Assembly (NCBI GenBank): GCA_013152945.1
Contig: JAADFL010000205.1
Location: 23,301 to 87,300 of the forward strand
Direction of reading: 5' to 3'
DNA from: Deltaproteobacteria bacterium
GTDB taxonomy: Bacteria; Myxococcota_A; JAADFL01
Length of the DNA: 64,000 nt
Shown here: positions 15,816-18,800 of the stretch, piece after piece
Layout of the letters: every line of letters begins with the position of its first letter
Position numbering within the stretch: position 1 is the stretch's first letter
Translations under genes and position numbers: made by a program
Notes under the pieces: generated by a model
What the model saw: the letters and a program-made list of their open reading frames with translations, nothing else
What the model was told of the DNA's origin: nothing
Database searches by the model: none

Positions 15816-18800
15816 TCAAAACACGTTTCGTTTCCTGGCAACCAGCCCTGCAAGAAACAATAAGCCAAGGACCTGTACGGGATTGAACGATCCAGAGGAT
15901 GCATTGCACTCGCAGCCGGAGGAACCTCCTGAAGTCTTTGTCGTGCCCGTGCCCGTGCTTGTGTCCGTATCCGTATCAGTATCTGTATCAGTATCCGTAT
16001 CAGTATCTGTGTCTGTATCTGTGTCCGTATCTGTGTCCGTGTCCGTGTCCGTGTCGATATCCAAATCAATATCCAGATCCAGGTCCGAGTCTGTGTCCGT
16101 ATCAGTGTCAATATCTGCATCTGTATCTGCATCGGTGTCGGTGTCGGTGTCTGTGTCTGTATCTGTATCCGTGTCCGTGTCTGTATCCGTGTCCGTGTCT
16201 GTATCCGTGTCTGTGTCTGTGTCAACATCCGAATCGCCGCCCGGGCACTCGGTCTTGAGATTGTACGTATCCAGTTCACCGGTTGAATCGTGCTGCCTAA
16301 GCAGTTCGACAATAAGCAGGAAGTCACCGGTCTGCTGGAAAGTGTAATCGATCTTGCCGGAGTAACCGTCATCTTTCAATGGGTTTCCCTGCCAATCCAT
16401 GAGCATCATGGCCATATACCCGTCACTTACCGGGTGTTCGAGTTTGAATATGAACTCATCTCCGGCAGACGCACTAAGGCTGAAACCATCCAACCAAATG
16501 TAATAACCCTGTTGCTTGTCATAGGATTTTTCATCGATGAAATCTCCATCATAACAGTCATTGCAAGCAAGCGGATTCGGGTCCCATTGTCGTTTCGTCA
16601 GGTCCGGCTCTTTCCCCTTTTTACACGATATACAGTTGTCATCCACTATTTTATTGCAGTCATCATCTACCTGGTTGCACCACTCCTTGGCTCCGGGATG
16701 GATCTTGTATAGGTCGTCGTCGCAGTCCCGGCCTCCACACTGGTCTGAAATGAAGGTATCCTTGTCAAGGTCGCAGTCGATTGTAGCCTTCGCAACAGCA
16801 ACGGCCGGGTTGCCCGTCCCATCGTCGGGATCATCGTATTCAGCCTTTACTTCATCTCCATCATTGACCTGTAGCTTGCCGTCTGAAGAAGTCGTGCCGT
16901 AGACCAGGTCTATCTTAGCAATGAACGTGCTCGTATCAGGACCTGTCTCTTCAAGATCGATTTTCTCGGGCACCGGTTCAGTGTTACTGGAAATCTTGAT
17001 GACAAGGTGGTCTTTTTGTTGTTTGTCCGTGTTGCCGCCCGAATCCATGACAGTTGCGGTTATTTGTTCCGGGGGCCTGTACACGGCCTTGTCCAGGCTC
17101 AATCGGCCGTGCTCGTCCACCTTGATGTAATCCCTGATTTGAAGCGCGGGATCACCGAACAGGTTTATTCCGTATATGACGAAACGCATACCAATTTCTC
17201 CGATTTTATCGATTCCGGCCTCCCTGGAGGCTGCATTGGCCTCGCCGAGTCTTTTCTTTCCCTTGTTCAGCAGGGCATCGAAAAAACTCAGATCGAGCAA
17301 TTGGGACGGGGAATCATCCGGAGTAAAACCTGCCAACCCGAAACGATTGTTCATGACTGCGGCAAAGGCCCCTGCAGGTCCTGTAACCTGGTGCTCTGCA
17401 ATACAATCGTCCGGTATGGGCACGCGGTCGTTCATATTCCGTGAGGGCATGAAGATGGAGCGGTTGTCAAAGCATCCTGCATAGCAACCCTGGGAATAGT
17501 CCAGGTAGTAGTCCGCATTCCTCAATCCGTCTATATCCTTTGTGGTGATGAGCATGTTGTGGGTCTGGTCGGAGTGTCCCAGGTGGTTCAACATGTTCAT
17601 GCCCTGGTTCAATACTGAAAGAACGTCTTCAGCTCCCCACCAGTTATCTTTCTGGTACATGACCGAGACATCGAAGAAGGGCTTGTCTGCGAATACCTGC
17701 TGGTGTATCTGCTCCTTGAAGGGTTTTGCGTATAGGTCATCAGTGCCGTATTGGTCGCCGGAAAACAAGAACTCGCCGATCATCCACACCTTCTTCAGTG
17801 AATCGCCTATGGAGTCCTCGTAAGCAAGTGTCTTGCGTACAAAGTTCTCCATCTCGTTGACACTATCGACAGGCGCCCTGCCCACAAAAACCTCGGAGAG
17901 CAAGTCAACGTCACCACCATCGTCTCCATCGTTTGCTTCTCCATACTTTCCGTTGGCATTACCATCAAAGGTGCCGTCGAGGTTGGAATAATAAAGATCC
18001 GATGCACTGTAATCTCCCTCGCTGTCGCCAAAATCAGAGAAAAAATATCTTGCCGGTACGAGAACGTCACCGGATTCGCCGCCTGCATCGCCGAAGTCGG
18101 CGTCACCACCGAGCAGCACGTACCTTGTGTTCCAATTCGTGTACGCGTCCTTGATGAAATTCCTCACCCTTGTTGCATCGTCCGAATCACCATCGGGTCT
18201 CTTGCCGTCATATTCGTTCCTTATCCACTCCATGGTCACGACTTTGCCACGGAGCCCCTCGCTGGTCCTCTTATCGGCCAACGCCTGAAACGTGTGATCC
18301 CCGTCTTCCGAGGCCAATGCCTCTGTCGTGATGATTACATATGGATAATCACCCGGTTCCAGGGATGTATAGAGCGACAAAGGGATCCTGGATAGGCCTG
18401 GATACGATGCCGAGTCGGACGGATTCAGGACCTGTTTCTCAACCAGTGCCCGGTCTTTGGGAAGGCCCGAGTAACCTGCATGCAGATCCGTATCCGGCTT
18501 GTTTGTCCGTGCCAATTCCACTTGTACGTCGAATTTTGCATGAAATCCGAGTTTGCCGCTCGATGGATTATACTCCACCGGGTAAAGCCTCAAGACAAGG
18601 ATTCTATAACCTCTCATGATATGCACGCCCAGGTTGTCGAAATTACGGCCGGGATAGGGCTGCAACGACGAGTAAACAGATGCATTTTCCCTTGGAACCG
18701 GCATTACCATTCCGGGCATTATCGGCACGGGCTTGGTCGCCGGGAGAACCTTGTGCACTCCGGGCAACATGGTCGTCTTGTCTGACGTGACCTTGATGCT

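What the first reader, a model, noticed from the sequence alone, without database searches (positions are those of the whole stretch)
15816..15932. Shared C-terminal sorting signal: (G)C(G/E)C motif + spacer + transmembrane helix + basic cluster on three secreted enzymes
Three proteins end in a near-identical tripartite tag: the C25 peptidase ([33 protein letters not shown]), the S8 peptidase (GCGCFTSGGHDNIRVTH-LLLLVGLFLLLPAF-RKIRERRER) and the beta-lactamase/cadherin mosaic (GCGCSHSASTGFPSF-LLMLFGISIFIG-HKHFNG). This layout is that of exosortase-, rhombosortase- or myxosortase-type sorting signals. The Cys-bearing GCGC core specifically resembles MYXO-CTERM, which is cleaved and Cys-lipidated by the CPBP-family myxosortase MrtX in Myxococcus. 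If so, this genome encodes such a sortase. If it belongs to another phylum, this may be an undescribed GCGC-CTERM class.
Basis: partly seen in the sequence, partly recalled or inferred. Interest (0 to 1): 0.6.

Follow-up and report, generated by a model that had tools for sequence, protein, structure and literature searches.

The report
MYXO-CTERM sorting tags on three enzymes
Three secreted enzymes in this window end in the known myxobacterial "MYXO-CTERM" surface-anchoring tag, in a diverged lysine-rich form from an uncultured lower-GC relative of myxobacteria, so this is an ordinary member of a known system and not a new sorting class.

Summary
GC[GE]C occurs only three times in 18,272 residues of the 30 large ORFs. 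Each time it lies 33-40 residues from a C-terminus and is followed by a hydrophobic helix and a basic end. About 0.002 such tails are expected by chance.

The three carriers have unrelated catalytic domains (C25 peptidase, S8 peptidase, beta-lactamase/Ig-repeat protein). All have signal-peptide-like N-termini.

The tag is a lineage-specific MYXO-CTERM. The window tails score below the curated cutoff of TIGR03901.2 (14.4 and 13.4 bits; the C25 tail gives no hit; cutoff 20). Orthologues or homologues of all three proteins in higher-GC MAGs carry cutoff-passing MYXO-CTERM tails at the same position (22-31 bits). The named relatives are titled Myxococcota, Myxococcales or "Deltaproteobacteria". 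The distance from Cys to the basic cluster (25-29 residues) matches the experimentally studied TraA tag (26).

The low scores fit compositional drift: window GC is 52%, and R/(R+K) is 0.53 in the window S8 against 0.73-0.90 in its orthologues.

Haft (2023) already describes the GCGC core as typical of MYXO-CTERM. Guo et al. (2025) showed cleavage by the CPBP protease MrtX.

No sortase gene lies in the window. The rest of the genome could not be retrieved, so the cognate myxosortase is inferred, not shown. Novelty is low.

The parts
15819..15917 (-). MYXO-CTERM-type tag of the C25 peptidase: GCEC, a 12-aa spacer, the hydrophobic helix [14 protein letters not shown], then RKRNVF
   Evidence: Translation and coordinates. 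It is the top hit (E 1.7e-5 among 493 ORFs) of an HMM built only from relatives' tails. No TIGR03901 hit of its own; only Mrt_dep_phytase at 11.5 bits.
22590..22709 (+). MYXO-CTERM-type tag of the S8 peptidase: GCGC, spacer, LLLLVGLFLLLPAF (contains one Pro), then RKIRERRER
   Evidence: TIGR03901.2 gives 14.4 bits against a cutoff of 20. G811 and C813 are invariant and C815 nearly invariant in the alignment with 12 orthologues.
63496..63594 (+). MYXO-CTERM-type tag of the beta-lactamase/Big_9 protein: GCGC, spacer, LLMLFGISIFIG, then a weak basic end HKHFNG
   Evidence: TIGR03901.2 gives 13.4 bits. The 66%-identical orthologue in L087/L088 ends [32 protein letters not shown] and scores 27.6 bits.
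15816..19088 (-). C25-family cysteine peptidase gene (1090 aa) with a signal-peptide-like N-terminus, C25 propeptide and catalytic domain, Cys-rich region, Thr-Asp repeat linker, and the tag
   Evidence: Pfam Peptidase_C25 4e-55 and Propeptide_C25. The signal peptide is judged by inspection.
15948..16235 (-). Thr-Asp dipeptide repeat linker (about aa 952-1047) just upstream of the C25 tag
   Evidence: It gives spurious matches to MSCRAMM Ser-Asp repeat models.
20157..22712 (+). S8 subtilase gene (851 aa; identical to NOZ88036.1), with a signal peptide judged by inspection and the tag
   Evidence: Pfam Peptidase_S8 5e-32. Identity and name.
61009..63597 (+). Beta-lactamase-like / Big_9 repeat protein gene (862 aa) with a signal peptide judged by inspection, a Thr-Asp linker (aa 677-782, nt 63037-63354), and the tag

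Best explanation
The three tails are MYXO-CTERM sorting domains in the diverged form used by an uncultured, lower-GC lineage affiliated with Myxococcota.

Proposed mechanism, by homology with Myxococcus xanthus:
1. Each enzyme is exported by Sec through its N-terminal signal peptide.
2. It is held in the inner membrane by the C-terminal helix, with the basic end in the cytoplasm.
3. The invariant first Cys of GCxC is lipidated.
4. A CPBP-family glutamic intramembrane protease (a myxosortase of the MrtX/MrtC/MrtP family) cuts off the helix.
5. The type II secretion system moves the lipid-anchored enzyme to the cell surface.

Shown here: the motif, its non-random occurrence, its modular attachment to unrelated enzymes, and its positional homology with curated MYXO-CTERM domains. 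Inferred only: lipidation, cleavage, dependence on type II secretion, and the presence of the sortase in this genome.
For: 1. Non-random tripartite tag on three unrelated secreted enzymes.
2. The only sorting-signal model hit is MYXO-CTERM; myxosortase-dependent family models give weak tail hits.
3. The twelve S8 orthologues (46-50% identity over the alignment; a downstream gene is shared in two of their loci) all end in GGCxC or GGCS, then a helix, then RRR. The Gly and first Cys are invariant in the alignment. P0007 scores 30.9 bits and P0004 27.2 bits on TIGR03901.2. JGI names P0007 a MYXO-CTERM protein.
4. 23 of the 45 relatives' tails in the 48-tail alignment reach E<=1e-3 on TIGR03901.2, and 7 reach it on TIGR03382.
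5. The beta-lactamase/Big_9 orthologue (66% identity) scores 27.6 bits. C25 homologues P0129, P0133 and P0135 score 22.6, 23.3 and 22.3 bits.
6. The tag follows taxonomy, not the enzyme. Most S8 homologues in MAGs titled Myxococcota, Myxococcales or Deltaproteobacteria carry it. Those titled Acidobacteriota, Thermoanaerobaculia or Dokdonella do not. Most C25 homologues end without such a tail, and several of them carry SLH or dockerin domains.
7. Geometry: the distance from Cys to the first basic residue is 25, 29 and 25 aa. It is 17-33 (median 22) in relatives and 26 in TraA (TraA sequence from PMC11980579).
8. The low HMM scores fit composition. Window GC is 52% against 66-70% in the related loci whose GC was computed (L084, L086-L088). 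R/(R+K) is 0.53 in the window S8 against 0.73-0.90 in its orthologues. Haft notes that lineage-specific models are needed.
9. A Myxococcus-named signature domain, MXAN_5187_C_dom, is present in the window at 56.9 bits (cutoff 30).
10. Mechanism source: PMC11980579.
Against: - None of the three tails reaches the curated TIGR03901.2 cutoff.
- The S8 helix contains a Pro, which Haft lists as absent from MYXO-CTERM helices.
- The third tag has only one Lys and two His as its basic cluster.
- No myxosortase or other CPBP gene lies in the window or in 2.37 Mb of fetched related DNA, apart from one generic CPBP in L039.
- Phylum assignment rests on submitters' names for MAGs and on orthologue distribution, not on marker-gene phylogeny. 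The SelA search was not informative.
Confidence: 0.85

Rival explanations
1. The tag is a separate Cys-containing sorting class with its own cognate protease. That protease could be another Mrt subtype such as the MrtJ, MrtS or MrtA type, or a non-CPBP enzyme. On this reading the resemblance to MYXO-CTERM is only superficial.
For: - Scores on TIGR03901.2 are below cutoff.
- The S8 helix contains a Pro, as Synerg-CTERM helices do. The basic ends are rich in Lys and His.
- Six of the 48 aligned tails also touch the Synerg-CTERM model.
Against: - Orthologues of the same proteins carry cutoff-passing MYXO-CTERM at the aligned position.
- The window tails lack the DP motif of JDVT-CTERM, the CGP motif of CGP-CTERM, and any hit to the JDVT, Synerg, CGP, PEP-CTERM or GlyGly models (motif definitions).
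- Tag geometry equals that of TraA.
Confidence: 0.07
2. The tails are plain, unprocessed C-terminal membrane anchors. The Cys pair would serve another role, such as a disulfide or metal binding, and no sortase would act on them.
For: No processing enzyme was found in the window. Nothing here measures cleavage.
Against: - The same Cys, helix and basic-end module sits on unrelated enzymes.
- It is exchanged between lineages like other sortase signals.
- It is homologous to tags that MrtX cleaves experimentally in a Cys-dependent manner (PMC11980579).
Confidence: 0.06
3. The three tails resemble one another by chance or through low-complexity sequence.
For: None beyond the short length of the motif.
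Against: The expected count is 0.0018 in 30 tails. Only 40 of 20,000 shuffles gave even one occurrence, and three are observed, all at the same distance from the C-terminus.
Confidence: 0.01

Closest known systems
MYXO-CTERM sorting domain (NCBIfam TIGR03901.2; older model TIGR03382 GC_trans_RRR), processed by the myxosortases MrtX, MrtC or MrtP
   Same: - Position at the extreme C-terminus.
- Invariant Cys within a GCGC-type core.
- About 25 residues from Cys to the basic cluster.
- A hydrophobic helix and a basic end.
- Carried by signal-peptide-bearing hydrolases and adhesin-like proteins, preceded by a disordered linker.
- Several copies per genome.
- Nearest relatives are Myxococcota.
   Different: - Scores fall below the curated cutoff.
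- Lys and His partly replace Arg.
- There is one Pro in one helix.
- The helices are rich in Phe and Ile rather than Ala and Leu, consistent with 52% GC.
- The cognate sortase was not seen.
[quoted passage not shown]
   Same: Tripartite layout with an invariant Cys, and presumably the same protease superfamily.
   Different: The window tails lack the DP motif before the helix (JDVT), the short Leu-rich helix with invariant Pro in all members (Synerg), and the CGP motif (archaeal CGP-CTERM). They give no model hits (definitions).
PEP-CTERM/exosortase, GlyGly-CTERM/rhombosortase and LPXTG/sortase
   Same: The general logic of a signature motif, a transmembrane helix and a basic cluster.
   Different: The signature motifs are absent and there are no model hits. 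Those systems do not rely on a Cys.

Membership tests
MYXO-CTERM (TIGR03901) | Domain lies at the extreme C-terminus of the protein | tested here: met
   All three tags end at the stop codon.
MYXO-CTERM (TIGR03901) | [quoted passage not shown] | tested here: met
   The cores are GCEC, GCGC and GCGC. The first Cys is invariant in the alignment with 12 S8 orthologues. Definition.
MYXO-CTERM (TIGR03901) | Hydrophobic transmembrane segment without charged or Pro residues | tested here: inconclusive
   Met for the C25 and beta-lactamase tags. The S8 helix LLLLVGLFLLLPAF contains one Pro. Some cutoff-level relatives also have Pro in the helix.
MYXO-CTERM (TIGR03901) | Arg-rich cluster after the helix | tested here: inconclusive
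   The ends are RKRNVF and RKIRERRER (basic, mixed Arg and Lys) and HKHFNG (weak). Protein-wide R/(R+K) is 0.53 against 0.73-0.90 in orthologues.
MYXO-CTERM (TIGR03901) | Score at or above the curated cutoff (20 bits) of TIGR03901.2. This is an operational criterion; the author states that lineage-specific models and manual review are needed. | tested here: not met
   Scores are 14.4 bits (S8), 13.4 bits (beta-lactamase) and no hit (C25). The caveat is quoted.
MYXO-CTERM (TIGR03901) | Positional homology with accepted MYXO-CTERM domains in orthologous proteins | tested here: met
   S8 orthologues score 30.9 and 27.2 bits, the beta-lactamase orthologue 27.6 bits, and C25 homologues 22.3-23.3 bits. 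Alignment. A relatives-only HMM ranks the window tails 1st, 3rd and 4th of 493 ORFs.
MYXO-CTERM (TIGR03901) | N-terminal signal peptide on every carrier | tested here: met
   By inspection only; no predictor was available. Each N-terminus has a basic n-region, a hydrophobic core and small residues.
MYXO-CTERM (TIGR03901) | Host belongs to Myxococcota (Myxococcia, Polyangia) or Bradymonadales | tested here: inconclusive
   The source protein is named 'Deltaproteobacteria bacterium'. The named nearest S8 loci are MAGs titled Myxococcota, Myxococcales or Deltaproteobacteria. An MXAN_5187 domain is present in the window. No marker-gene phylogeny was possible, and the SelA search was uninformative.
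MYXO-CTERM (TIGR03901) | Cognate myxosortase (core model NF040914; MrtX, MrtC or MrtP) encoded in the same genome | not testable with these tools
   None lies in the 64-kb window. The source contig and genome were not retrievable.
MYXO-CTERM (TIGR03901) | Cys-dependent C-terminal cleavage, lipidation, and surface display dependent on type II secretion | not testable with these tools
   This is an experimental property. It is known for TraA and MXAN_4924 in M. xanthus (PMC11980579).
JDVT-CTERM / Synerg-CTERM / CGP-CTERM | DP motif before the helix (JDVT); invariant Pro in a short Leu-rich helix (Synerg); CGP motif (CGP-CTERM) | tested here: not met
   The motifs are absent from the three tails, apart from a single Pro in the S8 helix. 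No model hits at E<=10. Definitions.
PEP-CTERM / GlyGly-CTERM / LPXTG | The respective signature motif and an HMM hit | tested here: not met
   No hits for the window tails. No exosortase or rhomboid gene was found among the membrane-protein ORFs checked in the window.

The most novel reading that the evidence does not exclude
This lower-GC, deep-branching lineage may use a co-evolved variant of MYXO-CTERM with a Lys/His-rich end and a Pro-tolerant helix. That variant might be read by a myxosortase subtype outside the described MrtX, MrtC and MrtP architectures. Alternatively, the lineage may fall outside Myxococcota and Bradymonadales, which would extend the known range of the system.
Probability: 0.12. 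Interest if true: 0.35.

Novelty: new member of a known kind. Interest (0 to 1): 0.15.

Why it matters
The practical value is for annotation. These three hydrolases are probably lipid-anchored cell-surface enzymes, not free secreted proteins or inner-membrane proteins. The general TIGR03901 model misses them because the lineage's composition has drifted, and NCBI names the S8 protein only 'S8 family serine peptidase'. A lineage-specific model would recover the surface proteome of this uncultured group. The result does not change how sorting systems are understood.

Tried and rejected
- **Source contig:** exact protein look-ups failed for the S8 protein and the beta-lactamase protein. The C25 and beta-lactamase proteins, with my start codons, are not in the protein collection.
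- **Public collections:** the genome contigs and metagenome-contig scans returned relatives only, not the source genome.
- **Sortase hunt in the window:** the multi-TM ORF screen and Pfam scans found only a PMT_2 glycosyltransferase, a VWA protein and a TPR protein.
- **Sortase hunt in related loci:** motif-picked candidates turned out to be a histidine-kinase-like protein, a ClC channel, an NTP transporter and proteins with no hit. One generic CPBP in L039 scored 21.5 bits on Mrt_core against a cutoff of 100.
- **Wider CPBP search:** phmmer and jackhmmer with that CPBP against 13,289 ORFs from 2.37 Mb found no other CPBP.
- **Taxonomy from SelA:** top hits were unnamed or spread over several 'delta' lineages and Bacillota.
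- **Synteny partner L084** (SelA 55% identical): it carries a Thr-Asp-repeat lipoprotein where the window has the C25 gene, and that protein has no tag.
- **Other sorting classes:** PEP-CTERM, GlyGly, JDVT, Synerg and CGP gave no hits.
- **PorU reading of the C25 protein:** it matches the T9SS sortase PorU model only through the generic C25 domain (48.9 bits against a cutoff of 420), so a PorU reading was rejected.

Full report
**Observation**

The minus-strand ORF 15816..19088 translates to a 1090-aa protein ending ...[38 protein letters not shown].

Pfam assigns three unrelated enzyme types:
- Peptidase_C25 with its propeptide;
- Peptidase_S8;
- Beta-lactamase (marginal) plus Big_9 repeats.

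All three begin with a basic, then hydrophobic, then small-residue N-terminus typical of Sec signal peptides. This was judged by inspection only.

GC[GE]C occurs three times in the 18,272 residues of the 30 large ORFs, each time 33-40 residues from the C-terminus. The expected number in 30 tails is 0.0018, and only 40 of 20,000 shuffles produced even one.

**Comparison with curated models**

On the isolated tails, the only sorting-signal model touched in NCBIfam is TIGR03901.2 MYXO-CTERM. It gives 14.4 bits (S8) and 13.4 bits (beta-lactamase protein) against a cutoff of 20. The C25 tail matches only the tail of a myxosortase-dependent phytase model. Pfam has nothing for the tails. No PEP-CTERM, GlyGly-CTERM, JDVT-CTERM, Synerg-CTERM or CGP-CTERM hit appeared. 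By the general model alone, the window tails are sub-threshold.

**Relatives**

*S8 peptidase.* The S8 protein is identical to NOZ88036.1, 'MAG: S8 family serine peptidase [Deltaproteobacteria bacterium]', on a 92.7-kb contig. Its twelve closest relatives are 46-50% identical over the alignment. Where named, they come from 'Myxococcota bacterium' or 'Deltaproteobacteria bacterium', and JGI calls one a 'MYXO-CTERM domain-containing protein'. All twelve end in GGC[GAS]C or GGCS, then a short spacer, a helix and RRR. In their alignment the Gly and first Cys of the motif are invariant and the second Cys nearly so. In two of their loci a downstream gene of about 530 aa abuts the S8 gene as in the window (overlapping it in the NCBI and JGI calls), which supports orthology.

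*Distribution by taxon.* A scan of one genome per GTDB species did not find the source genome. It did return 29 loci (L004-L032), most from MAGs titled Myxococcota, Myxococcales or Deltaproteobacteria and three titled only 'uncultured bacterium'. In most of these loci the S8 ORF carries the Cys, helix and RRR tail. The S8 homologues titled Acidobacteriota, Thermoanaerobaculia, Holophagales or Dokdonella lack it.

*Tails against the curated model.* Of 48 aligned tails (3 from the window, 45 from relatives), 23 reach E<=1e-3 on TIGR03901.2 and 7 reach it on the older TIGR03382 model. All 23 are relatives' tails, because the window tails only reach E 0.04-0.08.

*Individual checks.*

| Protein | TIGR03901.2 score (bits) |
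|---|---|
| S8 orthologue P0007 | 30.9 |
| S8 orthologue P0004 | 27.2 |
| Beta-lactamase/Big_9 orthologue, L087/L088 (66% identical) | 27.6 |
| C25 homologue P0129 | 22.6 |
| C25 homologue P0133 | 23.3 |
| C25 homologue P0135 | 22.3 |

The L087/L088 orthologue ends [32 protein letters not shown].

*C25 peptidase.* Most C25 homologues end without such a tail, and several carry SLH or dockerin domains. The named ones come from archaea, Omnitrophota and other groups. The tag is therefore a module attached according to lineage, as expected of a sortase signal.

*Relatives-only HMM.* An HMM built only from relatives' tails ranks the three window tails 1st, 3rd and 4th among 493 window ORFs.

**Why the window tails score low**

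The window has 52% GC. The related loci whose GC was computed (L084 and L086-L088) have 66-70%. R/(R+K) is 0.53 in the window S8 protein against 0.73-0.90 in its orthologues.

The tails accordingly use Lys and His where relatives use Arg, and Phe and Ile where relatives use Ala and Leu. Tag geometry is unchanged: the distance from the first Cys to the first basic residue is 25, 29 and 25 aa. It is 17-33 (median 22) in relatives and 26 in the experimentally studied TraA tag (TraA sequence).

Haft's description of the revised model says that the region is short and divergent, that lineage-specific models and manual review are needed, and that a second Cys (the GCGC motif) is frequent (10.1101/2023.06.07.544157).

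**Mechanism**

In M. xanthus, MYXO-CTERM proteins are exported by Sec and held by the C-terminal helix. They are thought to be lipidated on the invariant Cys. The CPBP-family glutamic intramembrane protease MrtX cleaves them; this is Cys-dependent and also works in E. coli. The type II secretion system then carries them to the surface (PMC11980579).

I infer the same pathway for the C25, S8 and beta-lactamase-like enzymes here. The Thr-Asp repeat linkers before two of the tags would act as flexible stalks. None of these steps is shown for this organism.

**The sortase**

No CPBP, exosortase or rhomboid gene lies in the window. The source contig and genome could not be retrieved.

In 2.37 Mb of fetched related DNA, the only CPBP is a generic one in L039. 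It scores 21.5 bits on Mrt_core against a cutoff of 100.

Published work reports myxosortase orthologues in the MYXO-CTERM-positive genomes examined, from Myxococcota and Bradymonadales. This makes its presence the default expectation.

**Taxonomy**

Support comes from three sources:
- the names of the nearest MAGs;
- the distribution of the tag across taxa;
- an MXAN_5187 C-terminal domain protein in the window, above its cutoff.

SelA was not informative. A syntenic relative, L084, shares the SelA, TatA, acyltransferase and ParA gene order but has 70% GC, which shows that the window's lineage is compositionally unusual. Exact placement needs the full MAG.

**Verdict**

This is a known kind of sorting signal (MYXO-CTERM) in a new, compositionally drifted lineage. 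The 'new GCGC-CTERM class' alternative is not. Interest is low; the value lies in annotation.

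Noticed in passing
window 120-1580 (+), 15948-16235 (-), 31146-33191 (+; aa 74-224), 63037-63354 (+); also L084 6395-9934: Long Thr-Asp dipeptide repeat linkers occur in at least four window proteins and in a relative's lipoprotein. They give spurious hits to staphylococcal Ser-Asp MSCRAMM models, and the repeats create long artefactual ORFs in other frames of both strands.
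   Followed up: partly
window 22709-24616 (+): A 635-aa gene of unknown function with a lipoprotein-like N-terminus overlaps the S8 stop by 4 nt. A counterpart of about 530 aa directly follows the S8 orthologue in L001 and L003. It may be a partner of the peptidase.
   Followed up: partly
window 39303-44312 (-): A 1669-aa protein with a lipoprotein-like N-terminus matches the C-terminal repeat region of the 'myxosortase-dependent M36 metallopeptidase' model (470 bits, below the 1500 cutoff). It has no MYXO-CTERM tail.
   Followed up: partly
window 5484-11075 (+): A large YD-repeat/RHS protein with an RHS-associated core domain and a short variable C-terminal tip. This is the layout of a polymorphic toxin.
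   Followed up: no
window 57302-60304 (-): A DnaK/Hsp70-like ATPase is fused to a long N-terminal extension of about 460 aa. The extension includes a TIGR02266-type domain at aa 33-125 (61.9 bits, just under the 68.7 cutoff).
   Followed up: no
window 55878-56597 (-): A protein with an MXAN_5187 C-terminal domain (56.9 bits, cutoff 30), a family named after a Myxococcus xanthus locus.
   Followed up: no
window 45002-52113 (+): A run of membrane proteins includes a VWA/DUF58-type protein, recalling Bat-type operons. Two of them end in a C-terminal helix without any Cys motif, so they are not tagged proteins.
   Followed up: no
window 11719-15766; L084 10001-13864: The gene order SelA, TatA, acyltransferase, ParA-like is conserved with a 70%-GC metagenomic relative, while the window has 52% GC. 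This is a large compositional shift between related genomes.
   Followed up: partly
window 15816-19088 (-): The best database homologue of the C25 peptidase is only 39% identical. Many homologues come from archaea and candidate phyla, which suggests a patchy, possibly horizontally spread enzyme that acquired the local sorting tag.
   Followed up: partly
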